Assembly: GCF_048287415.1 (NCBI RefSeq)
Contig: NZ_JBLWEN010000001.1
Span: forward strand, 88,790 to 152,789
Source: Candidatus Electronema sp. JM
Lineage (GTDB): Bacteria > Desulfobacterota > Desulfobulbia > Desulfobulbales > Desulfobulbaceae
DNA: 64,000 nt
Reading direction: 5' to 3'
A program made the position numbers and the translations under genes. Positions 20,287-53,412 of the stretch are shown here, one piece after another (within the stretch, counting starts at the first letter, position 1; each line of letters begins with the position of its first letter). Under the pieces are notes generated by a model. The model was not told the origin of the DNA, did no database searches, and saw only the letters and a program-made list of their open reading frames with translations.

Positions 20287-20376
20287 GTTACGGTCTATTC
20301 AAAATCAATTACAAGGAAAATTTTTATGGTTATTCCGAGCACAACGAGGAATCTTTGCTGCTTCTGAAACATCCAT

Positions 20377-21864: not shown

Positions 21865-22040
21865 GTGTGCTCGTGGTGTATTGCAAGAAACGATGCAGGC
21901 AGGCTGCGGGGACAGTCGCCGCAGCGCCTTTACACATTCGATTCTAAAACTTCCTCATCGCCAACCTACGCTTGGCTGCGCAACTGCTTCGGATAAGGCT
22001 GTATCAACGTTGGCAGGCCAGCTCCGATCTTTTCAAGGCA

Positions 22041-25300: not shown

Positions 25301-26047
25301 CTCGCCTTCCAGAAAGATCGGCTGCGGATGAATCGGGGTGCGGTTGCGGTTCAGGTGCTCGACATATTCAACCACGCCGCCTTCATAATGAAACACATCC
25401 TCAGCCCCGCTTTGCTCATCCTTCAGGGTGATGTGAACGCCCCGATTGAGAAAAGCCAGCTCGCGCAGCCGGTTGAGGACGATCTCGTATTTGAACACAA
25501 CCGTCTGGGTGAATATCTCCGGGTCTGGCTTGAAAGTAATCGTGGTGCCGGTGTGCTCGCTGGTGCCAACCACCTCCAGCTCGCTGGTCTTTGCGCCGTA
25601 AGAGAAGGTCTGCCGGTAGAGCTTGCCGTTGCGCCGCACCTCAGCGGTGACATGGGTGGAGAGCGCATTGACCACCGACACGCCCACGCCGTGCAATCCG
25701 CCGGAAACTTTATAGGACGAATGATCGAACTTGCCGCCCGCGTGCAAGGTGGTCAGCACCAGCTCAAGAGCGGTCATGTTTTCCGTCGGATGCTTGTCCA
25801 CCGGAATGCCGCGTCCGTTGTCTTCGACCGAGCAGGAACCGTCCTCCAGCAGGATCACCTTAATCTGGTTGCAGTATCCGGCCAGAGCCTCGTCAATCGA
25901 GTTGTCCACCACCTCGTAAATCAGATGATGCAGCCCTTCTTCCGCCGTGTTGCCGATATACATGGACGGACGCTTGCGCACCGCCTCAAGCCCGTCAAGA
26001 ACCTTGATCTGATCCGCCCCGTAGGACGTGTTCTGCTGTTCGCTCAC
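22337..26047 (-). CDS. gyrB: DNA gyrase subunit B, interrupted by an intein
   Basis: GTG at 26047 (AGAAGG 7 nt upstream) gives the canonical N-terminus [31 protein letters not shown]. The GHKL ATPase, transducer and Toprim (EGDSAGG / SAKQGRDR) regions are present. The extein totals about 803 aa once the 433-aa insert is removed. Confidence 0.95.
23453..24751 (-). mobile_element. GyrB intein (433 aa) with HNH-type endonuclease insert
   Basis: The insert lies between EGDSAGG and SAKQGRD. Block [11 protein letters not shown] (Cys codon 24751-24749), block B TPDH, block [15 protein letters not shown], block G VFVHN|S (Asn codon ends at 23453). Internal HNH motif [29 protein letters not shown]. 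Confidence 0.9.
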
Positions 26048-26352
26048 TTGCTTGCCTTCTCTGAAGAATTTATACGGAAAACGGCATGGTTGCGATGCGG
26101 CGCGCCGCATCCTGCCGGAAGCGGCTCATCATACCATAGTTCCGGCAAAAACGGGGAAAAATCTGCGGTTTGCAAGGAATTTTATCCAGATGGCCGCGCC
26201 GCCGCCAAGGAGCATTCCAGCGCGGAGCACTGCTGGCAAAATATGCAATAACGAAGAAAACAGGAACAGCCTGAATACAGTGGCATTTTTTCGCTACGAC
26301 TGGTATGATGGGCGGAGCTTGCCATTTTTATTTTTCATTGAGGAGAAGCGTT

Positions 26353-27050: not shown

Positions 27051-28052
27051 ATGGCGCTTTTTGAAGGATACGAACGGAGAATCAGCAAGATCAACGCGGT
27101 GCTGGCCGAACACGGGATCAAGGATTTGGATGCGGCCAAGCAGCTCTGTTTAGATGCGGGCGTGGATGTCTATGCCATTGTCAAGGGCGTGCAGCCGATC
27201 TGCTTTGAGAACGCCTGCTGGGCCTACATCGCCGGTGCGGCCATTGCTTTGAAAAAAAGGCAGAAAAAGGCGGTGGAAATTGCCTCCACTTTGGGCATCG
27301 GCTTGCAGGCCTTTTGCATTCCCGGCTCAGTGGCCGAAAACCGCAAAGTGGGCATTGGTCACGGCAACTTGGCCGCCCGGCTCCTTAGCGAGGAAACAAA
27401 GTGCTTCGCCTTTCTCGCCGGGCATGAGTCCTTTGCCGCTGCGGAAGGCGCCATCGGCATTGCCAGATCCGCCAACCGGGTGCGCACTGAGCCGCTGCGG
27501 GTCATCCTCAACGGCCTCGGCAAAGACGCGGCCTATATCATCTCGCGCATCAATGGCTTCACCTATGTGAAGACACAGTACGACTACTACAGCGGCGCAC
27601 TCAACATTGTTGAGGAAAAGGCGTTTTCCAGCGGCGAGCGGGCCAAAGTGCGCTGCTACGGCGCGGATGACGTGCGCGAGGGCGTGGCCATCAACCACTT
27701 GGAGCTGGTCGATGTGTCCATCACAGGCAACTCGACCAACCCGACCCGCTTCCAGCATCCGGTGGCCGGAACGTACAAGAAGGAATGCCTTGAGCAGGGC
27801 CGGAAGTATTTCTCGGTGGCTTCCGGCGGCGGCACAGGCCGGACGTTGCACCCAGACAACATGGCCGCTGGTCCGGCTTCTTACGGCATGACCGACACCA
27901 TGGGCCGGATGCACAGCGACGCGCAGTTCGCCGGCTCGTCCTCCGTGCCTGCGCATGTCGAAATGATGGGCTTTATCGGCATGGGCAACAATCCGATGGT
28001 TGGCGCATCAGTGGCGGTGGCAGTGGCCTTGCAGCAGGCGGCGGGGCAGTAA
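27051..28052 (+). CDS. GGGtGRT-family protein (function unknown)
   Basis: Contains the family-defining SGGGTGRT motif (FSVASGGGTGRTLHPDN). It starts 5 nt after the upstream gene's stop. Confidence 0.8.
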   Translation: MALFEGYERRISKINAVLAEHGIKDLDAAKQLCLDAGVDVYAIVKGVQPICFENACWAYIAGAAIALKKRQKKAVEIASTLGIGLQAFCIPGSVAENRKVGIGHGNLAARLLSEETKCFAFLAGHESFAAAEGAIGIARSANRVRTEPLRVILNGLGKDAAYIISRINGFTYVKTQYDYYSGALNIVEEKAFSSGERAKVRCYGADDVREGVAINHLELVDVSITGNSTNPTRFQHPVAGTYKKECLEQGRKYFSVASGGGTGRTLHPDNMAAGPASYGMTDTMGRMHSDAQFAGSSSVPAHVEMMGFIGMGNNPMVGASVAVAVALQQAAGQ

Positions 28053-33006: not shown

Positions 33007-35025
33007 TTACAGGCCGCGAACTGGCGGCAAGGAAAGGGCAAGCCGGAAGCCCAAGTCGTCGCTGCGGTTGTCCGGCGAGTACCAGTAGCGGAACGCCGCC
33101 CGCACGAACAAGGGTGAGTCGCCCCAGCTACCGCCGCGAAACACGCGGCTCGAGCCTTTCTCAGGGCCAATCGGATTGCCCTTAGGACTGACAGCGTAAT
33201 AACCACTGTTGTACCAATCCGCGCACCACTCCCAGACATTGCCGTGCATGTCGTGAAGGCCCCAAGCGTTGGCCTTCTTTTCACCAACTGGATGGGTTGT
33301 ATTGCCGGAATTTTTGCCGTACCAAGCATAGTCCTGAAGCTGCGCCTCATCATCACCAAAGCACCAAGCCGACTCACTGCCTGCCCGGCAGGCATATTCC
33401 CACTCCGCTTCGGTGGGGAGGCGATAGGTGTGACCTGTTTCCTGACTCAGCCATTGACAGTAGGCAACCGCATCGTCCCAGCTTACATTGATCACCGACC
33501 GCTGCCCTCTGCCCCAGCCCCTGTTTTCTTTACCTGTGGCCTCACAGAAAACATCGTACTCGGCAAAGGTGACTGGATAGCGGCCAATGGCAAAGCTGTC
33601 CAGTTCCACCTCATGCACCGGTCGTGCATCGTCACTGCCATTGCCCTGAATATCTCCCATGCGGAAACGACCGCCGCGTATAAGCATCATCTTTATTCCG
33701 AGTCCACCGCCAAAAGACTCCGGCAAAAGACAAGGTAAGGCAATCTGATCAACGTGCCTGAATATCCCATCAGCAAGATCAACAAAGCGCACGAGCTGAT
33801 CCGTGGCCCGCAGCGGTGTTTGTTCAGCCAACTGCTTCTGCACGATGCCCCAAGCTAAGAGGAACTCCTGCACCGTGTAATGGCTGAAGCGGAAGGCGCG
33901 GTCAGAGTTGCGGTTGAGCAAAGATCGTCCGCCCAGCTCGAACTGCTCCAGCCAGGCTATGTTCGCGTCCGCACGGATGAGCTGCTTCAGCTCATCCTCT
34001 GAGAGTACCCGCGTGCCCTGCCGCTGCATCCGCTCCGCAATCCGCAGGCAGGCCAGAAAGAGTTCCTTGCGCTCAGGCACCTGCTCGCCTTGATGCTGCT
34101 CCCGCAGCTTGCGCACTTCCCGGTCAAGCCATTCCTCCACCGTGTAGGTGTTCCAGTCTTGGCGGCGGCAGTCCTTGGCCAGCAGCTTGTCAATATGCTG
34201 AAGGAGCATGGGCCGCATCCGCAAATCCTGCATGTGCTTGAGCAGACAGTCCGCCTTGGCCCGCTCATCCCTGATCTTCCCAGCCTGAAAGCACAGACGA
34301 TGGTGCCAATGCAAGGGCAGCTTGCGCTCAATGAAGTCCTGCACTTGGGCATCGGTGAAGGGGGAAAGATACAGCACCGGGCAGTGATAGCCGGACAGCA
34401 CCCTGATCTCCGGGCGGCCAAAGCGGTCTGGCTCCATCTCCGGGAAGAACTGCGTCCGGCTGGAGATGAGCACCCGGCGGAAATCCTCGCTGGCGCGCAG
34501 CAGCTCCAGCAGGCGGTCGCGGATGCGCTTCCATGCCTGCGGGTCTTCGTCCAAGGCATCGAGCAGCAGGACGGTCCCGCCCTTGTTCGGCAGAGCCTGC
34601 ACGCGCTCCAAGGTGTCTTTCCCCAGCTTGAACAGGGCGCAGCCATGCCCCTTGGGCCAGAAGCTGGTCAGGTGCATGAGCTTGATCATCAGCAGCAGCG
34701 AGGTCTTGCCCATCCCAGCATCAGAGAGGATGAACATCTGGTGGCGGCCATCCTTCTCCAAAGGCAGACCGCCCTGAAAGAACTCGTTGATCCGCTCAAA
34801 GGCAGGCTGCCGGGCCGCAGAGAGCAGGTCGTCCTGCTGCACATCCGCCGGGTTGCGGTCTTGCAGGAACGGCTCAATGTAGAGGCCGCGCAGGGTTTCA
34901 GGATCAACGAACTCGTCCCGCAGACGGTCAAGCTCCTGCTTCCGCTCGCCGGTCAGTTGCGTGAGCCGCTTCCAAAGATCCTTAATCCACGCTGGCTTGA
35001 CAAAGCTCAGGACTTCCAAGGCCAT
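33007..35025 (-). CDS. NACHT-like STAND P-loop NTPase fused to a C-terminal FGE-sulfatase (SUMF1-type) domain
   Basis: Walker A SDAGMGKTSLL and Walker B VLLLDALDE. The C-terminal ~270 aa carry RGGRFRMGD...PVHEVELDSFAIGRYPVT..EY..F......WDDAVAYCQWLS...YRLPTEAEWEYACRAG...GLHDMHGNVWEWCADWY. RBS AGGAGGG. Confidence 0.8.
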   Translation of the reverse strand: MALEVLSFVKPAWIKDLWKRLTQLTGERKQELDRLRDEFVDPETLRGLYIEPFLQDRNPADVQQDDLLSAARQPAFERINEFFQGGLPLEKDGRHQMFILSDAGMGKTSLLLMIKLMHLTSFWPKGHGCALFKLGKDTLERVQALPNKGGTVLLLDALDEDPQAWKRIRDRLLELLRASEDFRRVLISSRTQFFPEMEPDRFGRPEIRVLSGYHCPVLYLSPFTDAQVQDFIERKLPLHWHHRLCFQAGKIRDERAKADCLLKHMQDLRMRPMLLQHIDKLLAKDCRRQDWNTYTVEEWLDREVRKLREQHQGEQVPERKELFLACLRIAERMQRQGTRVLSEDELKQLIRADANIAWLEQFELGGRSLLNRNSDRAFRFSHYTVQEFLLAWGIVQKQLAEQTPLRATDQLVRFVDLADGIFRHVDQIALPCLLPESFGGGLGIKMMLIRGGRFRMGDIQGNGSDDARPVHEVELDSFAIGRYPVTFAEYDVFCEATGKENRGWGRGQRSVINVSWDDAVAYCQWLSQETGHTYRLPTEAEWEYACRAGSESAWCFGDDEAQLQDYAWYGKNSGNTTHPVGEKKANAWGLHDMHGNVWEWCADWYNSGYYAVSPKGNPIGPEKGSSRVFRGGSWGDSPLFVRAAFRYWYSPDNRSDDLGFRLALSLPPVRGL

Positions 35026-35193: not shown

Positions 35194-38100
35194 ATGAATA
35201 CTACCCAGCCGCCGCCCATCGCCTCCAAGGCTCTTGAAGCCAACTTCCAGCAGACCGCCAGTGCCGTTGCAATTTCTCCCCGCTACGCCCCGCTGCGGGA
35301 GGCCGTGGCCCGCTATCAGGGCTTGTCCGCCCGGCTGGAGCACCTGCTCTACGAAATCAGCCACCCGTTCCGCAACTGGCAGCTCATCATCGCCGAGCTG
35401 CGGCCCTTTGTCCTCAAGAATCTCAATCATTACCTCAGCCATGCGCAGGGGCCGGACTGCTTCGCCCTCTTCAGCTCGATCTTCCTGGACGCGCTGAAGG
35501 ACTCGCGCAAAAACAGCAAGGTCATCGCCCTGACCATGGAGGCCATGCTCGCCTATGCGGACAAAGTCGTCGCCTCGCTCAAGCCGGACATGCTGCCGCT
35601 CTACGGCCCGCAGCTCAACGCTTTTTTCGAGCAGCTCGCCCGCTTGGACGAGATAGACAGCAGCCTGATGGCGCACATGGTGCAGGGCCATCATCCGATG
35701 AAGAAGATGGCGGCCCAGCTCATCAGCCTGAGCCGCAGCGCGGGCGCGGAAACCTTCTCCTGCGCTGCGGCGGCCAAGCTGCTGCGGAAAATCCTCGAAA
35801 TCAACTATGCCTGCTGGCTGGGCGAAGAGGATCCGCAGCCTTGGTTCGAGTCGCAGTGCGGCGGCGGCAGCTGCTGCGGTCAGGCCGGAACCGACTTGGC
35901 GGCGATCTCTCACAGCCGGATGCGCGAGCATCTGACCGCGCTGGAGCAGATCAGCATTGACGAGGATCCGCAGGAGGCCCTCAGCCGCATCTTGGAGCTG
36001 CCCGCGCATATCGACATCGTCCGCCTCTACCGGGAAATCCCCGGCAAATTAGGCGAACATGCTGCGGACACCGACCCGGCGGCGGTGGAGAACCGGAAGC
36101 TCTTCTTCCTCTTCCGCATCATGGAGACCTCCGGCCTCTCGCTCATTCATGAGGAAACCCTGCGCGAGATCAACCGTTCTTTGGTGCAGCTCATCCGCCG
36201 TCAGAGCTTTGACGAGATTGCCGAGTTTTTCACCACCGCCTTTCACTTGCTCAAGGCCAATGTGCGCAAATATCCGCACACTTCGCTGCAATGTATTCAG
36301 GTCATCGGCGGTGAAGTCTTCCAGCGCGGCAACTCGCGTTTAGTTGAAGCCTTCCTCTTCGAGACCGTGCGCTTCGGCTTCCAGCACGCCAATGTCATGG
36401 GCGTGGACGAGGACTGGCAGCCGATCAGCAACCCGGCGCATTTGGCCAACATCCGGGTCTGGCTGAACTTGATCATGCAGGAGCCGAAATGGTGCTCGAC
36501 GCTCTTCTCGGCCCTGATCATCAACCTGCGTCTCTCCGGCACCTGCGTCAAAGACACCGACCTCTTCCAGCGCGACATCACCCAGCTCCTCAATCATCCC
36601 ATCGGCCCGATCTATAACTTGGCCAAGCAGTTCAGCAAGCTGATGCCGGTCTTCTTCAATGAGATCGGCGCGGAAGGCGAGCTGCGCGATGTCTCCACCG
36701 AATTGGATGAACTGCACAAGCGGCACGACGTGCTCATTCATTTTCTCCGCAAGCAGTCGCACGTCGAGTCGTCGAACCTGATTGTCGGCTTCATCCGGGC
36801 CATCTACAGCTTCTGGCTGACCTTGGACAAGAAACCGCTGGCCGCCTATCTGCCGGAAGAAATCCTCAGTCAGGTGGCGAGCAGCGGCCCTTATGTGGAC
36901 GAGCTGCATCTGCTCGCTCAACAGGTGCGCGAGGAATTGGAATACAGCACAGTGGACGAGCTGCTGACCTGGGACGAGGCGGAGCGGAAAGACTGGCTGC
37001 TGCGCCAGAGCGACATTTCCGCTGGCGAGCGCAAACGCTTTGACCTGCTGGTGCGGATGTTCAAGCTGCTCCACCACAAATACAGCTTGGGCATGGATGA
37101 GCTGCGCGGTCAGCTCGAGCACGCGGTGCAGAACGGCTTCCCGGAAATGACCGAGCTGCTGGAGGTTTTGGAGCACGGCGACACCTGGACCTGCTTGGAC
37201 GCAGTGCTGACGCAATTAGAGCAGCTTAAAGAGACCATCCTCAGCGACAAGAAATTTGCGCCGAAGGAGGAAATTTACTACAAGCGGCACATCGCGGTGG
37301 ATATTCCTTCCGTCTATGGCCGCTATTCGGAGCGCAAATTTGACGCGCTCGGCCTGACCTTCCGCTTGGAGAGCCTGGCCAATATTTATTTGGAACGGCT
37401 GAACCGCTCGATCAATCTCGGCTTCATCACCCAAGCCACCTTCATCGGCATCGCCAAAAGCCTCAGCCTCTCTCTCCGCGCCCTGAAGATTGACGGCATC
37501 AGCAGCCGCCGCTTGGACACCTACACCAGCCTGCTCAACTCCTCGATCAGCATCAAACGCTTCACCTACACCCAGCACTTGGACATCTTCCGTGGGTTGT
37601 CAGAAGGGGTGAAGGATGTGATTTATGCCTATTACACCAATATTCATCAGAACAATCTCTCGGTCATCATTCCCCAGATCGGCGGCGAGAATCTGCTGAC
37701 CAAAAACCGGACGCTCTGGGACGAGAAGGACATGTCCTCGACCGTGCACCGCCTTTCCGAGTCCTTCTTCCGCGACCTGATCGCAGCCACCTTCGGCCTC
37801 CAGCATTTGGACAACTTCATCACCCGCATCATCCACACGCTGGAGGCGCAGCGCGACATTCTCGACGAGCAGACCCTCGACCTGCTCATGACCTACAACC
37901 CGGAAATCGCCATCTCCTCGCTCTACAACGAGAATCCGCTCACGCACAACCTGATTCATCTCGGCAACAAGGGCTTCAACCTCATGCTCTTGGCCAACGA
38001 CGGCAAGCCGGTGCCGCCCGCCTTCATCATCACCACTGAAATATTCCGCTGCTGGCAGGCGGTGCAGGGCTTCACCAAGGCGCGGGAGGAGTTTATGCAG

Positions 38101-39444
38101 CGGCTGCACACCTCCATCACCGGCTTGGAGGAGCGCACAGGCCGCCGCTTCGGCTCGCCGGAAAACCCGCTGCTGCTTTCGGTGCGTTCCGGCGCGGCGA
38201 TTTCCATGCCCGGCATGATGACTACGATCCACAACGTCGGCCTGAACGAGGATTTGCTGGAGGAGCTGTGCGTCAAGCACCCGGAGCAGGAGTATTTTCT
38301 CTGGGACACCTACCGCCGCTTCCTGCAATCTTGGGCGATGGGCGAAGGCATGGGCCGCGAGGAGTTCGGCGCGCTGATGAACGCGCACAAGAAACGCTAC
38401 GGCAAGCGGCTGAAACGCGAATTCAGCCCGGCGCAGATGCGCGAGCTGGCTCTTGAATACCGCAACGCCATGCGGCGGCACGGATGCAGCGCGCCGGAAG
38501 ATCCTTGGCTTCAGCTGGTGCGGGCGGTGGAGATGGTGCTGGATTCGTGGAGCACCCATAAAGCCCGCCAGTACCGCCACCTGATGGCCGTCTCCGACGA
38601 CTGGGGCACAGCAGTGATTGTCCAGACGATGGTCTATGGCAACCGCAATCAGCAGTCCGGCAGCGGCGTGCTCTTCACCGCCCATCCCTACCGCAAGGTG
38701 CGGCGGGTCGCGCTCTGGGGCGATTACGCCTCCGGTGATCAGGGCGAGGACATCGTCTCCGGCCTTGTCACCAGCTATCCGATCTCGGTCGAGCAGGCGG
38801 AGCTGGACGGGCGTTCGGTCGAGCAGAGCCTCGAACGCCGCTTCCCGGAGATCTACGAGCAGCTCCTCAGCATCTCCCGCGACTTGGTGTACACTAAAGA
38901 ATGGAACCCGCAGGAGATTGAGTTCACCTTTGAAAGCCCTGACCCGGACGATCTCTACGTGCTCCAGACCCGCGACATGATCACCATCAAGAAGAAGGAG
39001 CATTTCCGGGTCTTCGAGGAAAGCGAGGCGCAGCAGGCGGCGGTGCTCGGCAAGGGCATCGGCGTGAGCGGCTCCGCCATCTCCGGCCTGGCTGTCTTCA
39101 CCGACGAAAACATCCGCCAGCTCCGCCACGAGCAGCCGGACATGCCGCTCATCCTCCTCCGCCAGGACACGGTGCCGGAGGACATCCGGGAAATCTCCAT
39201 GTGCGACGGCCTGCTCACCGCGCGCGGCGGCCAGACCTCGCACGCTTCCGTGGTCGCAACGCGCTTGGAGAAAACCTGTGTGGTCGGCTGCCGCGACTTG
39301 CAGGTCTTCGAGGACAAGGAGCAGGCGGCCATCAACGGCCTTGTGATAAAATTCGGCGACCCGGTCTCCATTGACGGGCGCAGCGGCCTCTTCCTGCGCG
39401 GCATCCATCCGACGCGAGAAGAGGTGCATATTTTGCCGCTGTAG
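35194..39444 (+). CDS. 1416-aa PPDK-like protein: ~900-aa unknown helical N-terminal region + PPDK-type ATP-grasp + swivelling phospho-His domain, with no PEP/pyruvate TIM-barrel domain
   Basis: From about residue 915 it reads HLGNKGFNLMLLA..G.PVPPAFIITTE, LLLSVRSGAAISMPGMMTTIHNVGLN, GVLFTAHPY and GDQGEDIVSG. The mobile domain is GLLTARGGQTSHASVVATRLEKTCVVGC. The protein ends about 65 aa after the catalytic-His motif. Confidence 0.75.
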   Translation: MNTTQPPPIASKALEANFQQTASAVAISPRYAPLREAVARYQGLSARLEHLLYEISHPFRNWQLIIAELRPFVLKNLNHYLSHAQGPDCFALFSSIFLDALKDSRKNSKVIALTMEAMLAYADKVVASLKPDMLPLYGPQLNAFFEQLARLDEIDSSLMAHMVQGHHPMKKMAAQLISLSRSAGAETFSCAAAAKLLRKILEINYACWLGEEDPQPWFESQCGGGSCCGQAGTDLAAISHSRMREHLTALEQISIDEDPQEALSRILELPAHIDIVRLYREIPGKLGEHAADTDPAAVENRKLFFLFRIMETSGLSLIHEETLREINRSLVQLIRRQSFDEIAEFFTTAFHLLKANVRKYPHTSLQCIQVIGGEVFQRGNSRLVEAFLFETVRFGFQHANVMGVDEDWQPISNPAHLANIRVWLNLIMQEPKWCSTLFSALIINLRLSGTCVKDTDLFQRDITQLLNHPIGPIYNLAKQFSKLMPVFFNEIGAEGELRDVSTELDELHKRHDVLIHFLRKQSHVESSNLIVGFIRAIYSFWLTLDKKPLAAYLPEEILSQVASSGPYVDELHLLAQQVREELEYSTVDELLTWDEAERKDWLLRQSDISAGERKRFDLLVRMFKLLHHKYSLGMDELRGQLEHAVQNGFPEMTELLEVLEHGDTWTCLDAVLTQLEQLKETILSDKKFAPKEEIYYKRHIAVDIPSVYGRYSERKFDALGLTFRLESLANIYLERLNRSINLGFITQATFIGIAKSLSLSLRALKIDGISSRRLDTYTSLLNSSISIKRFTYTQHLDIFRGLSEGVKDVIYAYYTNIHQNNLSVIIPQIGGENLLTKNRTLWDEKDMSSTVHRLSESFFRDLIAATFGLQHLDNFITRIIHTLEAQRDILDEQTLDLLMTYNPEIAISSLYNENPLTHNLIHLGNKGFNLMLLANDGKPVPPAFIITTEIFRCWQAVQGFTKAREEFMQRLHTSITGLEERTGRRFGSPENPLLLSVRSGAAISMPGMMTTIHNVGLNEDLLEELCVKHPEQEYFLWDTYRRFLQSWAMGEGMGREEFGALMNAHKKRYGKRLKREFSPAQMRELALEYRNAMRRHGCSAPEDPWLQLVRAVEMVLDSWSTHKARQYRHLMAVSDDWGTAVIVQTMVYGNRNQQSGSGVLFTAHPYRKVRRVALWGDYASGDQGEDIVSGLVTSYPISVEQAELDGRSVEQSLERRFPEIYEQLLSISRDLVYTKEWNPQEIEFTFESPDPDDLYVLQTRDMITIKKKEHFRVFEESEAQQAAVLGKGIGVSGSAISGLAVFTDENIRQLRHEQPDMPLILLRQDTVPEDIREISMCDGLLTARGGQTSHASVVATRLEKTCVVGCRDLQVFEDKEQAAINGLVIKFGDPVSIDGRSGLFLRGIHPTREEVHILPL

Positions 39445-39451
39445 CTGATGG

Positions 39452-39478
39452 CGAAAAAGGGGCGAAGAAAATCGCCCC
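39452..39478 (-). terminator. Rho-independent terminator of the AT-rich operon (hairpin shared with the convergent PPDK-like gene)
   Basis: GGGGCGA (39459-39465) pairs with TCGCCCC (39472-39478). Read on the minus strand, the hairpin is followed directly by TTTTT. Confidence 0.6.
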
Positions 39479-39495: not shown

Positions 39496-40212
39496 CTATT
39501 GAGCAGTGCCTTTTCGAGGAATCTTCAGCCGTAGTCTTGGATAAATTAAGTTTGGGTTATCCATCAACTGAGGATGCTTCTCTTTATTTGCCAAAATAAT
39601 TTCTTGAACAGAAACGTGGTGTCGTTCAGCGATCTTTCCTAAACAATCGCCTTCCATTACTTGATAGCAGTCTTTGCCTAAATAGCAATCAACAGTCTCC
39701 TTTAGTTCTGTGATATTTTCTGGATTGGCATAGAATATGTAGACTGGCGCGAAAATCAAAGAAACAGCGTACCATCTTTTTTTACGAAATATCCATCTAA
39801 TGTTTATTGTTTTTTCATAAATTTTTTTTATTTTGCTTTTGCAATTTTCAATAAAAATTATGCCGCCGCTCAAGATGCCATCTATTTTATAGACAAAAAC
39901 AGGCAGATTCGACCTGTATTTCCGTATCAATCTATTTCCATATCCTTCCATGTAAAGAAGGATAAAAAACAATGTAAAAACACAGAATGCTATTATTTTA
40001 AATAAAATCATTAAAATCCAAGGAAGCACCCGGAGCGCAAGCCAAGGAATCAACAACATCAATACGAAAAGAATAACAAACGGGAGTGCAACGGATAGCC
40101 ATTCTGATCTTGATGCAGAAAATAGCTGTTCGGAAATAACTTGGAAGAAAAGAATACCTTTTATAAGGTATTCATCTTGAATTTGGTTTAACAGGCTATT
40201 CAGGCGTTCCAT
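39496..40212 (-). CDS. Island gene D: polytopic membrane protein with C-terminal LysM domain
   Basis: There are 3-4 hydrophobic helices (LSVALPFVILFVLMLLIPWLAL, ILMILFKIIAFCVFTLFFILLY, AVSLIFAPVYIFY). The LysM-like C-terminus is YQVMEGDCLGKIAERHHVSVQEIILAN...IYPRLRLKIP. The start overlaps the gene C stop by 17 nt. Confidence 0.7.
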   Translation of the reverse strand: MERLNSLLNQIQDEYLIKGILFFQVISEQLFSASRSEWLSVALPFVILFVLMLLIPWLALRVLPWILMILFKIIAFCVFTLFFILLYMEGYGNRLIRKYRSNLPVFVYKIDGILSGGIIFIENCKSKIKKIYEKTINIRWIFRKKRWYAVSLIFAPVYIFYANPENITELKETVDCYLGKDCYQVMEGDCLGKIAERHHVSVQEIILANKEKHPQLMDNPNLIYPRLRLKIPRKGTAQ

Positions 40213-41437
40213 CTCTCCTTATTGATTCAGGGTGTATATTAATATCCGCACTTTCTTCTTGTTGATCCTGTTGTTTTTCCTCGCTGGATGACTTTTCTCC
40301 AATAAGAGCAGCTCCTTGGTCTGACAATCTTCCTACCTTCTGCACAAGTGATTTGGCAATATCCTCAAACCTCCATTCGCCGATCACACCTTTTTCAACG
40401 AAAATTTTTAATATTTCTATACAAGTTGAATTCTCTTCAACACGCATCTTCTCTTCCCTGTCTATTTGCTGTTTGACAAATGAAAGCAATTCTCTGTCGT
40501 TTGGATTTTCTGGATTGCATATTGCAATAATTCCGCGCCAATTACCAATTGACAGGAGCGGCGACAGCAGCGTTTCCCTATTTAGCCTATGATTGAATTC
40601 AATTCGCTGCATTTCAAGCTGCTTCTCAAATTCAATCTGCTTGATTCGCATCTCTGCTTCCATTTTCTTCAATTCAAAATTCATACTTTGTTCCAGCAGG
40701 ATAGTTTGCCTATAAAGCTCAATTTTCCTATCCTTAAATAGCAGCTCCTGTCTCATGGACTCTATCTCCATTTTCTGCTGCATCAGCCGTTTTTCCATTT
40801 CAGCCTTTATGGCATCTACCGAGAATTGCTCCTGAATGATTTTTTCTTGATTTTTTGCATCTATCGTCCCCAGCTTTCCATCAATCAGCCTTTTGCTGAT
40901 GGATTCATGTGGCGACAGCGTAACGAATGGAGGACGGCTTAACTTGAATCCTAAGTCATGAATTTTATTGCCATATATCAATTGACTTTTAAGCTCCTCA
41001 ACAACAGCTCGTTCTGCCTGCGATGCCTGCTCGTTCGCATAGTTTCGACAGATAGGCCGGATTATATCAAGAGCTGACTCTTTTAAAAAATCCCGAATGT
41101 CTCTCCTTCCATTCTGCACAATAAGCAATGGATTATCTATGCAATAAGTCAATGTGACTTCAGCTTGAAAAGGGAGTTCGTCAGCACAAGGAATACTTAC
41201 TGAAAAAAGAATTGAATATTCCGACAGATCAACTTCATAATACACCTTATATGTGCCGATGAGAATGTCGCCAGCTGTCGGCCCGCCATTTTTTCCTGCG
41301 TAAACAACAATTGGCGGACAATTTTCTCCAAGAAAGACATGTGCCTTTCCGAATTTCGGCGATTCAGGCCGTTTGAAGGAAAATTTTTCCAGTTTTCTCT
41401 CAATAACAAGCGGATATTCTTCAGGAGCGAAATCCAT
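40196..41437 (-). CDS. Island gene C: SPFH/band-7-like N-terminal domain + long coiled coil (flotillin-like architecture), putative
   Basis: FSVSIPCADELPFQAEVTLTYCIDNPLLIVQNG..DIRDFL resembles the SPFH beta-alpha core. Residues ~195-290 are Glu/Lys/Met/Gln-rich heptad-like sequence. The start overlaps the gene B stop by 17 nt. Confidence 0.5.
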   Translation of the reverse strand: MDFAPEEYPLVIERKLEKFSFKRPESPKFGKAHVFLGENCPPIVVYAGKNGGPTAGDILIGTYKVYYEVDLSEYSILFSVSIPCADELPFQAEVTLTYCIDNPLLIVQNGRRDIRDFLKESALDIIRPICRNYANEQASQAERAVVEELKSQLIYGNKIHDLGFKLSRPPFVTLSPHESISKRLIDGKLGTIDAKNQEKIIQEQFSVDAIKAEMEKRLMQQKMEIESMRQELLFKDRKIELYRQTILLEQSMNFELKKMEAEMRIKQIEFEKQLEMQRIEFNHRLNRETLLSPLLSIGNWRGIIAICNPENPNDRELLSFVKQQIDREEKMRVEENSTCIEILKIFVEKGVIGEWRFEDIAKSLVQKVGRLSDQGAALIGEKSSSEEKQQDQQEESADINIHPESIRRDGTPE

Positions 41438-42929
41438 TTTTTATCTCTGTTAAAATTTTCAAGGAAGTTTCAGATTCATCAGACCATTTTTCTAAGTACG
41501 CGCAAATGCAATTGCGATTTCTTGGAATACGAGAGACATCATATAAAATTCTTGCGAGAGTTTTCCAGAATTTTCCGTGCATGTCAATATGTTTCAGCCA
41601 CTTGAATATTTCAGTAAGAGCAAGTCGTCTGATTGGCTCCGAATCAAAAACTCTTTGCAGCAGACGGACAATGAGTTCTTCCGTCTTTGCTTTCTCTTCC
41701 GCAAGAATAAGAAGGCTCGGATGCTGGGAGCCGTCTTTAATTGACCAAGAAATACGCATCAAATCTGAAAATATAAGCAGAGACAAGCGATGAAGCGAGG
41801 ATTTTTTCTCCTGCCGTCCCCATTGGTTAAGAGATTGCAGAACGAGAACCGACGAACTTGATTGCTTGAAGAGCCATTTGACAGCATAAGCTATATCTTT
41901 AAAGAGTATTCCGTTGCCTGAATTTGCAATATTTCTTAAATCTTCGAGAGCTTGTTCAGGAAAATGCTGACCAAGACAAGAGCAATATGCGAAAATTGCA
42001 GTTTGATTCAATTTGACTGAATTTTTCAGACTACTCCAATAATGAATACTATTTAAAGAAAGTTGAGCAACATCTTCGTTTTCATCATATAAAACAACTG
42101 CAAGCGCAAATCCAACTAATTTTTGGATAGATTGACTTTCTGATTTTGCCCAAGGCAACAATATTTGGTCACGAACCGGTTGAAATTCATACCGTGCCAG
42201 CCGACCCGCTGTTGCTGCTGCTCTCAGTCTGATTTGAGAATTTTCATGTTTCCCTAACTCAAACAACCATTGCAGCATTGCTTTTGCATAAACATCACGT
42301 TCATGCCAGATGTGATGCAAAACAGTTTCTGGAGTTTCTTGGTCATCAAATGCAACTTTCTTGACAGGACTTTTGCCGCATTCGGTAACTTCGCAATCAT
42401 TTTCAAGATGCGCTGATATGTCTTTAAGCCACTGACTCCTTTTCTTTTCCTCTATCTCTTCGTCCAGATTAGAAGTATTTTCTATCTCCGCTTCCTTCCG
42501 CGACTGCAACCGAATGATATTTTGCAAATACTGGCTCGCCTCATCAACTAATCGGTAATTGCAGCCATTAAACACTGACAGTGAAATGATAAAACTGCGC
42601 CTGCTTTTGCAGCTATCAAATATAGATTCGATAGAAGAATCAAACGATTTATCTTTGTCCGCTTGCGTTTTTTGGCCAGAATAATTGCTCTGATCTCCGG
42701 CGATTATCGAGCCAGTATTATTTATATTGCTGTTTGATGCATGAAACCCTCCAGTGTAATTATAATTTTTAATTATTTGAATAATAGTTCTGCTGTTCTC
42801 TGTAAAATCATCTGTTTCGTTCGTATGTATTTTATTGTATTTTATAGATTCTTCAACAGATTTTATACCGTCATCTTCAGAAAGATGATCAATTTTTTCA
42901 AAGAAATTTTCTTCGTCGCCTTGTTCCAT
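41421..42929 (-). CDS. Island gene B: hypothetical protein with an acidic/Asn-rich N-terminus and a HEAT/ARM-like helical repeat body
   Basis: A 502-aa ORF at about 35% GC. The HEAT-like motif IRLRAAATAGRLARY is present. The N-terminal motif TGSIIAGDQ echoes the gene A C-terminus. I recognised no enzymatic motif. Confidence 0.6.
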   Translation of the reverse strand: MEQGDEENFFEKIDHLSEDDGIKSVEESIKYNKIHTNETDDFTENSRTIIQIIKNYNYTGGFHASNSNINNTGSIIAGDQSNYSGQKTQADKDKSFDSSIESIFDSCKSRRSFIISLSVFNGCNYRLVDEASQYLQNIIRLQSRKEAEIENTSNLDEEIEEKKRSQWLKDISAHLENDCEVTECGKSPVKKVAFDDQETPETVLHHIWHERDVYAKAMLQWLFELGKHENSQIRLRAAATAGRLARYEFQPVRDQILLPWAKSESQSIQKLVGFALAVVLYDENEDVAQLSLNSIHYWSSLKNSVKLNQTAIFAYCSCLGQHFPEQALEDLRNIANSGNGILFKDIAYAVKWLFKQSSSSVLVLQSLNQWGRQEKKSSLHRLSLLIFSDLMRISWSIKDGSQHPSLLILAEEKAKTEELIVRLLQRVFDSEPIRRLALTEIFKWLKHIDMHGKFWKTLARILYDVSRIPRNRNCICAYLEKWSDESETSLKILTEIKNGFRS

Positions 42930-42942
42930 TTTTGATCTCTCT

Positions 42943-43353
42943 TCATTTTTTATTTATTTGATCCCTGCCTATAAAAGTCCCTTCATTGACAAAGGTGGAA
43001 TTTTTGATAAGCACACCTCCTGTTTGCACAATTCTTTCTACCTTTACCCCATAAAGCCGTGCGATATCTAACGCTAATTCCTGATCTTCTTGGAGCAGCT
43101 TTTTCACTTGAAAGTGCAGAGTCTTCTGCGCATCTTCTTCTGAAGGATCCCGTACCACATCTTCTGCCGCCATTTTCACACCTTCAACTCTTGCAGAAGA
43201 ACGGGAAGAAATTTTTGTCCAGACAGCCTTGGCCGTCTCCCATCCGTCAGAACCTATTTTTTCTAACGCTCCTCCCAGTATCTGTCCCCCACCGCTCAAC
43301 AGATAAGGAAGTACTGGCACTAAAGAAGAAACAACCATTTCAGCAAGTTCCAT
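42943..43353 (-). CDS. Island gene A: small helical protein (136 aa) resembling N-terminal adaptor modules of conflict-system NTPases
   Basis: LVPVLPYLLSGG..ILGGALEKIGSDGWETAKAVWTKI...DPSEEDAQKTLHFQVKKLLQEDQELALDIARL is followed by EGTFIGRDQ. It is the first gene of the operon, 13 nt upstream of gene B. Confidence 0.55.
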   Translation of the reverse strand: MELAEMVVSSLVPVLPYLLSGGGQILGGALEKIGSDGWETAKAVWTKISSRSSARVEGVKMAAEDVVRDPSEEDAQKTLHFQVKKLLQEDQELALDIARLYGVKVERIVQTGGVLIKNSTFVNEGTFIGRDQINKK

Positions 43354-43653
43354 AGTTTTTTCTCAATGTCTCAAGTTGTTCCAGCAGCCAGAGCAATTCA
43401 GGCTTGACAAGGGCAGGCTGCCGATGAATACTGCGCTGCTCAGTATGTGATCACCTGCAATAAATTTCAAGTATTTTAAAAGGGCTTTTGAGCTGCCTTG
43501 CTGCCTGTCTCGGCGGTGCAACAGCGGAGGCCGTCACATCGTTTACATTGAAAAAACAAGGCTACAGGTCACAGCTTGGATTGAGCATTTACGTCGAGGA
43601 AGTTTTCAAATTATCTAAAAACTGAAATACTACAGCTTGCATGTCCGGCAGCT

Positions 43654-45081
43654 TTAATACGCCCCCTTGCCGCTGATCATGCAGCCGACCGTTTTGAGGA
43701 TGATCTTCAGATCGCCGACAAGGGAGTGATTGAGGACATACCAGTCATCCAGCTCAATTCGCTCCTGATAATTTTCCGTATCGCTGCGTTTGCTCACCTG
43801 CCACAGCCCGGTGATGCCCGGCTTCATCGAGACATAGCGGCCCGCGCTCGGCCCGCCGCTGCCCTTGTAGTATTCCTCCAGCTCTCTGCCGACGATAGGC
43901 CGTGCCCCGACCACGCTCATTTCGCCTTTCAGGACGTTGATAAACTGGGGGAATTCATCCAAGCTGCTGCGGCGGAGAAAACGGCCCATCCGCGTCACAC
44001 GGGGGTCATGCTTGAGTTTGAAGGTGCTGCGCCATTCCTCGGCCAAGGCAGAATCACGTTCCAGCAGCTCGTGCAGCTTCTTATCTGCGTCCACCACCAT
44101 CGTGCGAAACTTCAGGCATTCAAATTCCCGGCCTGTCGCGGTGATCCGCCGATGGCGGTAGATCACCGGCCCTCTGCTGTCCAATTTAATCAGCAGCATG
44201 ATCAAGAACATCAGCGGCGCGGTCAGGATGAGGATAAGTAGTGAAAAAACGATATCAAAGCTGCGCTTCCAGCTATGATCTGGGTTGAAGCTGAGAACCA
44301 GCATTTCGCCGATGGACTGTATCTCCGCGTGATGTAAACCGAAAATATAGAGATCAGGCACCAGATAGAGCTGTGCGCCGAGGTCGCGGCATTCGCGCAG
44401 GATCCAGAAGATTTTCCGCTCCGCCCGCATCGGCAAGGCGATATACACGTAGTCAATGTCGTTGACCATCAGATATTCGCGCAAATCACGGATTCTGCCG
44501 AGCAAGGGTTTGTTGACCGCAAGATGGCCTTTTTGCTCCAGCTTGTCGTCAAAAAAACCCAGCACTTCGATGCCCGCCCACGGAATGGCCTCGGTCTGCT
44601 GGGCCATCCGCACCCCCAGTTCGCCCGCGCCGATGACCACCGCATGGCGGATGTTTTTGCCCTGCGCCCGGTAATGGCGCAGAAGCTGACGCACTGCCAA
44701 ATGGGAAAGGAAAAGCAGCAGCGGCGTGGTCAATGACCAGACGATGAAGATTGCCCGCGAGTAGCCTTCCGAAACTTTGCAGATGAAGAAATAGAAAAGC
44801 AGGATGCCGACAACTGCCGCCCAGGCCTTCAGGATGACGAAAAATTCCAGATAGAGCTTCCAGCCCCGCCACGAGCGGTAAAGCTGAAAATAATGAAAGC
44901 TGATAAAACTGGCGACAAAAACGACAGCCTCAAGCCAGGTGTAGTATTGGCTCCACGGCACCTGATGCCAATCCACCAGCAAGCTGAGATAGCCGCAGAC
45001 CAGCAGGCAATCGAGAATATGCAGCAGTTTGTAGATGGACGAGGTGCGCTGACGCAGGTTCCACGACAGGGCAGGGGACAT
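43654..45081 (-). CDS. Polyprenyl-phosphate hexose-1-phosphate transferase (WcaJ/EpsB-type bacterial sugar transferase)
   Basis: Four to five N-terminal TM helices and a Rossmann-like linker. The C-terminal PF02397-type core is KRSFDIVFSLLILILTAPLM...DSRGPVIYRHRR....G..F...KFRTM...A........KHDPRVTRMGRFLRRSSLDEFPQFINVLKGEMSVVGARP. Confidence 0.85.
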   Translation of the reverse strand: MSPALSWNLRQRTSSIYKLLHILDCLLVCGYLSLLVDWHQVPWSQYYTWLEAVVFVASFISFHYFQLYRSWRGWKLYLEFFVILKAWAAVVGILLFYFFICKVSEGYSRAIFIVWSLTTPLLLFLSHLAVRQLLRHYRAQGKNIRHAVVIGAGELGVRMAQQTEAIPWAGIEVLGFFDDKLEQKGHLAVNKPLLGRIRDLREYLMVNDIDYVYIALPMRAERKIFWILRECRDLGAQLYLVPDLYIFGLHHAEIQSIGEMLVLSFNPDHSWKRSFDIVFSLLILILTAPLMFLIMLLIKLDSRGPVIYRHRRITATGREFECLKFRTMVVDADKKLHELLERDSALAEEWRSTFKLKHDPRVTRMGRFLRRSSLDEFPQFINVLKGEMSVVGARPIVGRELEEYYKGSGGPSAGRYVSMKPGITGLWQVSKRSDTENYQERIELDDWYVLNHSLVGDLKIILKTVGCMISGKGAY

Positions 45082-53208: not shown

Positions 53209-53293
53209 TTGCACTATAGTGGAAGCAGCCATTGCACTACAGTGGAAACCTCGGTTGCACCATAGTGCAAACATCGGTTGCACTATAGTGCAA
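53209..53293. repeat. Four 16-bp palindromic sites (TTGCACTATAGTGCAA consensus) on an exact 23-bp period
   Basis: Copies start at 53209 (TTGCACTATAGTGGAA), 53232 (TTGCACTACAGTGGAA), 53255 (TTGCACCATAGTGCAA) and 53278 (TTGCACTATAGTGCAA, a perfect palindrome). Confidence 0.9.
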
Positions 53294-53311
53294 CCGCAAG
53301 CCACAGCCTGC

Positions 53312-53326
53312 TGGCCGCTTGGCTGC
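53312..53326 (+). promoter_or_regulatory. Candidate sigma-54 (-24/-12) promoter
   Basis: TGGCCGCTTGGCTGC fits the TGGC-N8-TGC spacing of the TGGCACG-N4-TTGC consensus. It lies 19 nt downstream of the palindrome array and 87 nt upstream of the ROCO ATG. Confidence 0.3.
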
Positions 53327-53412
53327 GAGGAAGCTGCAAGTATCCGAGCCATGCTCGAAGGCATTGCAGGGGCACCCTTAGCACAACCACACACCCACGG
53401 AGGAACGAGGCG

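What the first reader, a model, noticed from the sequence alone, without database searches (positions are those of the whole stretch)
35194..39444. 1416-aa PPDK-like enzyme without a PEP/pyruvate domain but with a ~900-aa unknown N-terminal region
The last ~500 aa carry the PPDK nucleotide-binding (ATP-grasp) motifs and the swivelling His domain (GGQTSHASVVATR). The protein stops about 65 aa after the catalytic His, so the TIM-barrel that normally accepts the phosphoryl group is absent. Instead, about 900 aa of helical sequence with no motif I recognise precede the grasp domain. By analogy with rifampin phosphotransferase-type enzymes, this may be an ATP-driven His-phosphotransferase acting on an unknown substrate bound by the N-terminal region. 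A second truncated PEP-utilizer relative lies at 60661-63261.
Basis: partly seen in the sequence, partly recalled or inferred. Interest (0 to 1): 0.6.

Follow-up and report, generated by a model that had tools for sequence, protein, structure and literature searches.

The report
Orphan-domain dikinase linked to GAPDH genes
This cable-bacterium gene encodes a widespread, highly conserved 1,400-residue enzyme that keeps the ATP-driven phospho-histidine engine of pyruvate phosphate dikinase but replaces its pyruvate-binding barrel with a large helical domain of unknown fold, and in many other anaerobes it sits next to glyceraldehyde-3-phosphate dehydrogenase genes, which suggests an undescribed step in central sugar metabolism.

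The parts
35194..39444 (+). Complete gene for the 1416-aa dikinase-like protein ('X'), identical to WP_417913596.1 of Candidatus Electronema sp. JM
   Evidence: ORF list and translation; exact-sequence look-up; the N-terminus matches the family consensus MxxxxxSxALxxNL
35194..37938 (+). N-terminal orphan domain (aa 1-915): all-alpha apart from one beta-hairpin, with no known family or fold
36364..36813 (+). Conserved core 1 (aa 391-540), with invariant H416, D454, T455, D456, E494, G495, R498, D505, D512, R519, K520, H523 (motifs DTDLFQRD, NEIGAEGELR, HFLRKQxHxES)
   Evidence: Invariant columns in alignments of 43 and 75 divergent members. Windowed conservation 0.51-0.71, close to that of the kinase active sites.
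37264..37383 (+). Conserved beta-hairpin motif (aa 691-730): ExIYxKRHIAxxIPSxYGxYxExKF. The tip loop 696-707 is flexible in the model and holds invariant K697, R698, H699, P705, S706.
   Evidence: Only beta element in the model, with a low-pLDDT tip. Highest N-terminal conservation, 0.77. Invariants.
37951..38988 (+). PPDK-type nucleotide-binding (ATP-grasp) domain, aa 920-1265, with K926, R998, E1241, E1243, Q1258, R1260
   Evidence: TIGR01828 positions 18-335; PDB PPDK alignment; family invariants; coordinates checked
39040..39420 (+). Phospho-histidine swivel domain, aa 1283-1409, with catalytic His1350 (nt 39241-39243) and Thr1348
   Evidence: PF00391 E 3.4e-16; isolated PPDK His domain 2FM4 aligns with aa 1282-1403; H1350 invariant; coordinates checked
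39459..39478 (.). GC-rich palindromic hairpin between the convergent gene ends; a possible shared terminator
   Evidence: Consensus scan reported it on the minus strand, but the number of such sites was no higher than in shuffles, so this is weak. Sequence read.

Best explanation
X is a PPDK-derived phospho-histidine dikinase in which the PEP/pyruvate TIM barrel has been replaced by a novel ~915-aa all-alpha N-terminal domain that supplies the third (acceptor) site. Proposed mechanism: (1) the ATP-grasp domain binds ATP and pyrophosphorylates His1350. (2) Because the kinase half is of the PPDK type, not the PEPS type, the gamma-phosphate most likely goes to Pi, giving AMP + PPi and leaving the beta-phosphate on His1350. 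(3) The swivel domain carries His1350~P to the conserved polar site of the N-terminal domain (H416, D454, D456, E494, R498, D505, D512, R519, K520, H523 and the K697-R698-H699 hairpin), where the phosphate passes reversibly to a bound acceptor. Gene context places the acceptor in triose-phosphate/C3 metabolism, working with a dedicated long phosphorylating GAPDH paralog (gap*). My leading specific guess is 3-phosphoglycerate <-> 1,3-bisphosphoglycerate, an AMP/PPi-linked counterpart of phosphoglycerate kinase, so that [X + gap*] would run parallel to [pgk + gap]. What is shown: the domain composition, the retained catalytic residues, the absence of the barrel, the novelty and conservation of the N-terminal domain, and the gene pairing in other genomes. 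What is inferred: steps 1-3, Pi as co-substrate, and above all the identity of the acceptor. The confidence given is for the general statement; for the specific 3-PG reaction I put about 0.2.
For: Kinase half: aa 920-1409 align with PPDK residues 17-513 (E 1e-73), and TIGR01828 scores 355 bits against 66 bits for PEPS. K926, R998, E1243, Q1258 and H1350 are invariant, and R1260 and T1348 are at least 90% conserved, in 43 members at 30-61% identity. N-terminal half: a confident all-alpha model (pLDDT 85.9); no sequence or fold relatives; two motifs as conserved (0.71, 0.77) as the ATP loop (0.78) and the His loop (0.76). Family: 594 clusters at 50% identity, with the architecture constant in Desulfobulbales, Clostridia, Bacteroidales, Geobacteraceae and Anaerovoracaceae. 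Identity of 61-85% across Desulfobulbales is typical of a core enzyme. Context: unbiased neighbour clustering finds a single widely conserved neighbour, a ~417-aa GAPDH-like gene immediately downstream on the same strand, in 47 of 59 dereplicated lineages (median gap 55 nt) and in 54 of 71 loci with enough sequence. Canonical gap lies directly upstream in about 20 Desulfocapsaceae-type loci, in the order aroK-aroC-glgA-gap-X. The sister clade has pgk-tpiA-secG divergent from gap-X-gap*. Dissulfurirhabdus thermomarina has gap-X-gap*-pgk-tpiA-secG. SerA lies downstream in 9 lineages. gap* keeps the catalytic Cys and His and the motifs that hold the phosphate-site residues of canonical GAPDH (my assignment from the alignment). 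Precedent from established knowledge: succinyl-CoA synthetase uses an ATP-grasp domain and a swinging phospho-His to make an acyl phosphate.
Against: There are no biochemical data for any member, and no paper was found. In this window and in other cable bacteria the gene has no glycolytic neighbours, so the context evidence is borrowed from relatives at 30-70% identity. PGK is present in the same loci or genomes, so a second 3-PG/1,3-BPG enzyme is not required. gap* also occurs without X nearby. I could not obtain model coordinates, so I could not test whether the invariant N-terminal residues cluster in space or whether His1350 can reach them. Bacteroidales-type loci lack the GAPDH neighbour. 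Hemerythrin-fused variants would also fit a sensory or regulatory role.
Confidence: 0.55

Rival explanations
1. X does the same job as PPDK or PEP synthase (pyruvate <-> PEP), with the N-terminal helical domain acting as a non-homologous replacement for the PEP/pyruvate TIM barrel, and it serves gluconeogenesis together with a gluconeogenic GAPDH paralog.
For: The kinase half is closest to true PPDK. Databases label the family PPDK or PEPS. Neighbours include gap, glgA and shikimate-pathway genes, whose pathway consumes PEP. This recalls the co-regulated gluconeogenic pair gapB/pckA of Bacillus subtilis (established knowledge).
Against: The N-terminal domain has no similarity in sequence, profile or fold to any PEP- or pyruvate-binding domain. 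Desulfolithobacter dissulfuricans, which has X at 70% identity, also has a canonical 816-aa PEP synthase that is abundant in its proteome. The conserved neighbours are gap, gap*, pgk and tpiA; no enolase or pyruvate kinase appears among the annotated neighbours.
Confidence: 0.15
2. X is a protein-directed phosphotransferase or a sensor-regulator. The helical N-terminal region would be a docking scaffold, and His1350~P would phosphorylate a protein such as gap*, or a residue in X's own flexible hairpin (H699 or S706), to control flux at the GAPDH step.
For: Large alpha-helical regions often mediate protein binding; the only fold hits are solenoid or bundle proteins. The invariant hairpin tip is flexible and carries His and Ser. 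Some members have an N-terminal hemerythrin sensor domain. The partner GAPDH has about 80 aa of subfamily-specific insertions that could act as docking sites. PTS Enzyme I shows that a PEP-utilizer His domain can phosphorylate a protein (established knowledge; weak hits).
Against: Conservation of 61-85% across an order, and active-site-level conservation of many charged residues, are more typical of an enzyme than of a regulator. A dikinase that spends two phosphoanhydride bonds per event would be a costly switch. Many genomes keep X without an adjacent partner.
Confidence: 0.18
3. X is a bacterial counterpart of plant alpha-glucan, water dikinase and phosphorylates glycogen or polyglucose.
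For: Similar size (about 1400 aa), no TIM barrel, and a large N-terminal non-catalytic region. Glycogen synthase glgA lies two genes upstream in about 25 Desulfocapsaceae-type loci. Cable bacteria are reported to store polyglucose (my own knowledge).
Against: No carbohydrate-binding module was detected. The domain order (ATP-grasp then His) is the reverse of GWD. glgA adjacency is confined to one lineage, whereas GAPDH adjacency spans phyla.
Confidence: 0.04
4. X is a xenobiotic or secondary-metabolite phosphotransferase of the rifampin phosphotransferase or PigC type.
For: It shares the logic of an ATP-grasp domain, a swivel His domain and a substrate domain that is not a TIM barrel. There are weak NCBIfam hits to RPH, PigC and RedH (E 1e-7 to 1e-10).
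Against: Scores are far below the cutoffs (30.8 against 999 for RPH). The domain order differs. Conservation is at housekeeping level and the gene sits in a glycolytic operon context, with no resistance or biosynthetic cluster nearby.
Confidence: 0.03
5. The long ORF is an assembly or frameshift artefact that fuses two genes, or it is a decaying pseudogene.
For: None beyond the unusual length.
Against: The exact protein is in RefSeq. More than 1300 homologs at 90% clustering have the same length and architecture across phyla, with strong purifying conservation along the whole length.
Confidence: 0.01

Closest known systems
Pyruvate, phosphate dikinase (PPDK, EC 2.7.9.1; e.g. Clostridium symbiosum 1KBL/1DIK)
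   Same: The ATP-grasp nucleotide domain and the phospho-His swivel domain are in the same order. PPDK residues 17-513 align with aa 920-1409, and all catalytic residues of these two domains are kept.
   Different: X lacks the C-terminal PEP/pyruvate TIM barrel entirely, carries about 915 extra N-terminal residues of unknown fold, and scores 355 bits against a cutoff of 843 for TIGR01828.
TIM-barrel-less 'PPDK' of actinobacteria (NCBIfam NF004531/PRK05878, 534-aa profile; I recall this as the Mycobacterium tuberculosis Rv1127c type)
   Same: A PPDK N-terminal domain and His domain without the PEP/pyruvate barrel. X aa 922-1261 match profile positions 25-299, 292 bits.
   Different: X scores below the cutoff (456) and has the 915-aa N-terminal domain that those proteins lack. 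Their function is also unresolved (my own knowledge).
Rifampin phosphotransferase (RPH; PDB 5FBS/5HV1; PMC4844700)
   Same: An ATP-grasp domain, a swivelling His domain and a substrate-binding domain that is not a TIM barrel, giving ATP -> AMP chemistry through phospho-His.
   Different: RPH domain order is ATP-grasp, then the RIF-binding domain, then His. Its substrate domain is unrelated to X's. Sequence similarity is weak (30.8 bits against a cutoff of 999). RPH is a resistance gene, not a gene in a glycolytic context.
Alpha-glucan, water dikinase (GWD, EC 2.7.9.4)
   Same: About 1400 aa, with the substrate-recognition region N-terminal to the catalytic His and nucleotide domains, and no TIM barrel (my own knowledge).
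   Different: In GWD the His domain precedes the nucleotide-binding domain, and the N-terminal region holds CBM45 starch-binding modules. None was detected here.
Succinyl-CoA synthetase / ADP-forming acyl-CoA synthetases (mechanistic precedent only)
   Same: An ATP-grasp domain plus a mobile phospho-His that phosphorylates a carboxylate to an acyl phosphate. This is the chemistry proposed for the 3-PG -> 1,3-BPG guess.
   Different: No homology to the acceptor site is claimed. The His carrier is of a different type, and those enzymes form ADP, not AMP.
PTS Enzyme I
   Same: A PEP-utilizer His domain next to an alpha-helical partner-binding subdomain, with phospho-His passed on to another molecule (weak hits E 2e-4 to 2e-3).
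   Different: Enzyme I is charged by PEP at a TIM barrel, not by ATP at an ATP-grasp domain, and its acceptor is the protein HPr.

Membership tests
PEP-utilizer / dikinase superfamily (PPDK_N ATP-grasp + mobile His domain) | PF01326 nucleotide-binding domain above the gathering score | tested here: met
   96.8 bits against cutoff 27, aa 965-1205
PEP-utilizer / dikinase superfamily (PPDK_N ATP-grasp + mobile His domain) | PF00391 mobile domain with the catalytic His in a TSH motif | tested here: met
   59 bits against cutoff 23.1; GGQTSHAS with H1350 invariant
Pyruvate, phosphate dikinase (TIGR01828) | C-terminal PEP/pyruvate-binding TIM barrel (PEP-utilizers_C) | tested here: not met
   No hit. 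The protein ends 66 aa after the catalytic His, at the position matching PPDK residue ~513. The N-terminal region is all-alpha, so it is not a permuted barrel.
Pyruvate, phosphate dikinase (TIGR01828) | Whole-protein score above the curated equivalog cutoff | tested here: not met
   355.2 bits against cutoff 843.45
Pyruvate, phosphate dikinase (TIGR01828) | ATP-site residues and the T-x-H catalytic motif (PPDK K22, R92, E323, Q335, R337, T453, H455; numbering recalled from the literature) | tested here: met
   K926, R998, E1243, Q1258, R1260, T1348, H1350 are conserved across the family
Pyruvate, phosphate dikinase (TIGR01828) | Catalyses pyruvate + ATP + Pi <-> PEP + AMP + PPi | not testable with these tools
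   Needs an enzyme assay
PEP synthase (TIGR01418 / NF005057) | Score above cutoff, and a TIM barrel | tested here: not met
   66-73 bits against cutoffs 598-740; no barrel
Rifampin phosphotransferase (NF041857) | Score above cutoff; domain order ATP-grasp, substrate domain, C-terminal His | tested here: not met
   30.8 bits against cutoff 999. Here the His domain follows the ATP-grasp directly and the extra domain is N-terminal.
Alpha-glucan, water dikinase | N-terminal CBM45 modules; His domain preceding the C-terminal nucleotide-binding domain | tested here: not met
   No CBM or any other Pfam hit in aa 1-920, even at E <= 10. Domain order is ATP-grasp then His.
TIM-barrel-less PPDK (NF004531, PRK05878) | Score above cutoff; a protein of about 500 aa made only of the ATP-grasp and His domains | tested here: not met
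   291.9 bits against cutoff 456; X has an extra 915-aa N-terminal domain

The most novel reading that the evidence does not exclude
X catalyses a previously unrecognised reaction of lower glycolysis/gluconeogenesis: an AMP/PPi-linked interconversion of 3-phosphoglycerate and 1,3-bisphosphoglycerate (a '3-phosphoglycerate, phosphate dikinase') at a new all-alpha catalytic domain. With the long GAPDH paralog gap* it would form a second, energetically distinct module parallel to PGK + GAPDH in energy-limited anaerobes, much as PPDK relates to pyruvate kinase and PPi-PFK to ATP-PFK.
Probability: 0.2. Interest if true: 0.9.

Novelty: new variant of a known kind. Interest (0 to 1): 0.68.

Why it matters
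The Embden-Meyerhof pathway is the best-studied pathway in biology. Even so, a 1,400-residue, strongly conserved enzyme family sits inside or beside the gap-pgk-tpiA cluster of many anaerobes (sulfur disproportionators, digester Clostridia and unclassified Thermodesulfobacteriota) with no known substrate, no curated family for two-thirds of its length and no structural relative. If it catalyses a new phosphoryl transfer at the triose-phosphate node, it would change how the energy budget of carbon metabolism is drawn for energy-starved anaerobes, cable bacteria included. It would also define a new catalytic fold that accepts phosphate from a swivelling phospho-histidine. There is a practical point too. 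Pipelines label the family 'pyruvate, orthophosphate dikinase' or 'phosphoenolpyruvate synthase', so genome-based metabolic reconstructions may count a PEP-forming step that this protein, lacking the PEP/pyruvate domain, probably cannot perform.

Tried and rejected
1. Permuted TIM barrel in the N-terminal region: rejected. There are no profile hits, and the model is all-alpha with a single hairpin. A local resemblance of 'ALGLTFRLE' to the barrel motif 'GIGLxRTE' lies in a predicted helix, and I judged it to be chance.
2. Fusion or frameshift artefact: rejected. A member with no Pfam hit (P0239) turned out to be a truncated divergent member with the same motifs.
3. Link to the adjacent NACHT-FGE-sulfatase gene: rejected, 0 of 80 related loci.
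5. HAD-like 'DxD' reading of IFISDTDLF: rejected, because the segment is not preceded by a beta-strand in a Rossmann-like fold.
6. 'X replaces a missing PGK or a missing PEPS': weakened. PGK lies in the same loci, and PGK plus an abundant canonical PEPS are present in D. dissulfuricans.
7. Looking for X in the D. dissulfuricans proteome table: not found, but the stored file is truncated, so this is inconclusive.
8. Literature searches for the family or the gene pair found nothing.
9. Promoter and terminator scan: no sigma-70-like promoter, and terminator-like sites no more frequent than in shuffles.
10. Whether cable bacteria have gap* elsewhere in the genome: the last homology search returned mostly unnamed proteins, none labelled as cable bacteria, so this is inconclusive.

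Full report
OBSERVATION. The ORF at 35194-39444 (+) is real, starts with ATG and encodes 1416 aa. Its sequence is identical to RefSeq WP_417913596.1, 'PEP/pyruvate-binding domain-containing protein' of Candidatus Electronema sp. JM, a freshwater cable bacterium. Pfam finds only PPDK_N (aa 965-1205, E 2e-27) and the PEP-utilizers mobile domain (aa 1319-1398, E 3.4e-16), with no PEP-utilizers_C barrel. NCBIfam's PPDK model TIGR01828 matches positions 18-335 of 865, at 355 bits against a cutoff of 843. Solved PPDKs align over their residues 17-513 with aa 920-1409 (E about 1e-73). The catalytic motif GGQTSHAS holds His1350 (nt 39241-39243), and the protein stops 66 residues later. That point corresponds to the start of the linker which leads to the TIM barrel in PPDK (domain boundaries from my own knowledge of C. 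symbiosum PPDK).

THE KINASE HALF IS INTACT. I matched X to PPDK residues using numbering recalled from the literature. The equivalents of the PPDK ATP-site residues are K926 (K22), R998 (R92), E1241/E1243 (D321/E323), Q1258 (Q335) and R1260 (R337). The equivalents of the T-x-H motif are T1348 and H1350. All are present. Each is invariant or at least 90% conserved in an alignment of 43 family members that share only 30-61% identity with the window protein. The kinase half is much closer to PPDK (355 bits) than to PEP synthase (66-73 bits). I therefore infer, without proof, PPDK-type chemistry: ATP + Pi giving AMP + PPi, with the beta-phosphate left on the His.

THE N-TERMINAL DOMAIN CARRIES A SITE AS CONSERVED AS THE ACTIVE SITES. 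Across the 43 divergent members, windowed conservation has two N-terminal peaks: aa 391-540 (0.51-0.71) and aa 691-720 (0.77). For comparison, the ATP loop (aa 991-1020) scores 0.78 and the His loop (aa 1321-1350) scores 0.76. The invariant residues are mostly charged or polar: H416, D454, T455, D456, E494, R498, D505, D512, R519, K520, H523, K629, Y630, K697, R698, H699, P705, S706, R724, R860 and D873. The hairpin tip (aa 696-707) carries K-R-H...P-S and is the least confidently modelled part of the core, as would be expected for a mobile loop. This pattern suggests a catalytic or ligand-binding site that combines acidic residues able to bind a metal with basic residues able to bind phosphate. 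I could not test spatial clustering because model coordinates are not exposed.

DISTRIBUTION. The best hits are cable bacteria (Electronema 81-85%, Electrothrix 73-76%) and other Desulfobulbales (61-73%). A profile search reaches members named from Clostridia, Anaerovoracaceae, Bacteroidales, Geobacteraceae and other Thermodesulfobacteriota, at 33-51% identity and with unchanged length. Cultured hosts include Desulfobulbus rhabdoformis, D. elongatus, Desulfogranum spp., Desulfolithobacter dissulfuricans and Dissulfurirhabdus thermomarina. A few members add an N-terminal hemerythrin domain. Source databases call the family PPDK or PEP synthase, and by the membership tests it is neither.

GENE CONTEXT: THE MAIN NEW FINDING. 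In this window X is monocistronic. It is flanked by a divergent NACHT-like/FGE-sulfatase gene and a convergent LysM gene. None of the window's neighbours recurs next to X in 80 related genomes, so the proposed NACHT link is not supported. Elsewhere the picture is very different. I collected 80 metagenomic loci of the distant clades and 8 further loci from exact-protein look-ups, then clustered all neighbouring ORFs without prior assumptions. Exactly one neighbour is widely conserved: a ~417-aa GAPDH-like gene immediately downstream on the same strand. It is present in 47 of 59 lineages dereplicated at 90% identity, with a median gap of 55 nt, and in 54 of 71 loci that have a complete X and at least 1.5 kb downstream. 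This 'gap*' keeps the NAD-binding GxGRIG motif, the catalytic Cys (SCTT) and His. It also keeps the motifs DLRRNR, TGAA and VRIPT, which I assign to the phosphate-site residues of canonical GAPDH. It carries about 80 residues of insertions and scores below the type I GAPDH cutoff (313 against 367 bits). In about 20 Desulfocapsaceae-type loci a canonical 335-aa gap lies directly upstream, in the order aroK-aroC-glgA-gap-X. In the clade closest to the Desulfobulbales (about 50% identity) the locus is secG-tpiA-pgk, divergent from gap-X-gap* with a 5-nt spacer. In Dissulfurirhabdus thermomarina everything is co-directional: gap-X-gap*-pgk-tpiA-secG. In 9 lineages 3-phosphoglycerate dehydrogenase (serA) lies further downstream. 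Over all 171 X-containing loci, truncated ones included, 58 have gap* downstream, 20 have gap upstream and 5 have both. The pairing recurs in different arrangements and phyla, which argues for a functional link and against mere inherited synteny.

LIMITS OF THE CONTEXT EVIDENCE. Cable bacteria, Desulfobulbus (where a P-type ATPase follows X) and Bacteroidales-type loci lack the GAPDH neighbour. gap* is a large family of its own, and 3 of the 5 gap* genes I sampled have no X nearby. PGK co-occurs with X. In D. dissulfuricans the published proteome table lists PGK (GF1_27150), a long GAPDH (GF1_27170, 406 aa), a canonical GAPDH (GF1_25490, 334 aa) and an abundant canonical 816-aa PEP synthase (GF1_21790) (PMC9751629 supplement). 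X in that genome lies elsewhere. X therefore does not fill an obvious gap in the pathway. It is either a parallel route with different energetics, or it does something else at this node.

MECHANISM PROPOSED. Shown: a complete ATP-grasp domain and phospho-His swivel domain, no barrel, a novel conserved domain, and the association with GAPDH, PGK and TPI genes. Inferred: ATP pyrophosphorylates His1350; Pi probably removes the gamma-phosphate as PPi; the swivel domain delivers His~P to the conserved N-terminal site; and a bound acceptor is phosphorylated reversibly. From the gene context I place the acceptor in C3/triose-phosphate metabolism. My leading specific guess is carboxylate phosphorylation of 3-phosphoglycerate to 1,3-bisphosphoglycerate, which would then be handed to gap*. 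Phospho-His to acyl-phosphate transfer has a precedent in succinyl-CoA synthetase (established knowledge). Paired modules [pgk + gap] and [X + gap*] would mirror known ATP/PPi enzyme pairs in anaerobes. I put the general statement at 0.55 and this specific reaction at about 0.2.

RIVALS. The rivals are a non-homologous PPDK/PEPS analog (0.15), a protein-directed phosphotransferase or regulator of the GAPDH step (0.18), a glucan dikinase (0.04), an RPH/PigC-like small-molecule phosphotransferase (0.03) and an artefact (0.01). The evidence for and against each is listed in its own section.

COMPARISON WITH KNOWN FAMILIES. X belongs to the PEP-utilizer/dikinase superfamily, since both defining domains score above their cutoffs. 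It fails the membership tests for PPDK and PEPS (no barrel, scores below cutoff), for RPH (score and domain order), for GWD (no CBM, reversed domain order) and for the short barrel-less PPDK family PRK05878 (score, extra domain). In general logic it works like RPH and GWD: an ATP-grasp domain, a swivel His domain and a substrate domain that is not a barrel. Its substrate domain, however, is unrelated to anything described.

NOVELTY AND VERDICT. I found no paper on the family or on the gene pair, no curated model for two-thirds of the protein and no solved relative of that region. I class it as a new variant of a known kind: a dikinase with a new acceptor domain. It is widespread, strongly conserved and placed in the most classical of metabolic operons. 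Interest 0.68. The main caveats are that the function is inferred from gene context in relatives, not from this genome, and that no substrate has been established.

Noticed in passing
window 60661-63261 (+): A second non-canonical dikinase (866 aa). It has a PEPS-like ATP-grasp and His domain (aa 124-577, matching PDB 8A8E/2OLS), no TIM barrel, and unassigned N-terminal (~125 aa) and C-terminal (~290 aa) regions. D. dissulfuricans has a possibly related 853-aa protein, GF1_10020, at low abundance.
   Followed up: partly
L081 12314-13567, L169 11275-12564, L171 7001-8236 and about 60 other related loci: A long GAPDH paralog ('gap*', 406-455 aa) has about 80 aa of insertions but an intact catalytic Cys and His and intact phosphate-site motifs. 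It scores below the type I GAPDH cutoff. It is a large family of its own and is sometimes found without X nearby (L172, L173, L175).
   Followed up: partly
P0163, P0166 (family members from metagenomes): Some family members carry an extra N-terminal hemerythrin domain (typically an O2, iron or redox sensor), which suggests that the enzyme is regulated in some lineages.
   Followed up: no
window 22337-26110 (-): The DNA gyrase B gene is 1257 aa long because it contains an intein with an HNH endonuclease module.
   Followed up: no
window 33007-35025 (-): A 672-aa protein has a weak NACHT/EruA-like N-terminal match and a C-terminal FGE-sulfatase domain. It is transcribed divergently from X but is absent from all 80 related loci.
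   Followed up: partly
window 53278-54363 and 54460-55434 (+): An LRR + Roc GTPase ORF is followed by a separate COR-A/COR-B ORF. This is a ROCO-type protein split into two reading frames, either as a true split or through a frameshift.
   Followed up: no
window 18000-22000 and 40000-44000: Two low-GC islands (0.47-0.51 and 0.40-0.43, against a background of 0.57-0.62). The second begins just downstream of X and covers the SPFH/Band 7 gene and an unassigned 502-aa ORF, with the LysM gene at its edge, which suggests recently acquired DNA.
   Followed up: no
window 27051-28052 (+): A very strong match to the uncharacterised GGGtGRT protein family (PF14057, E 1e-193), located between gyrB and sbcC.
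   Followed up: no
L034-L057 (Desulfobulbus-type loci), L174: In Desulfobulbus, Desulfogranum and Desulfolithobacter a heavy-metal P-type ATPase (with HMA domains) follows X at about 100 nt on the same strand. This synteny is lineage-specific and of unclear meaning.
   Followed up: no
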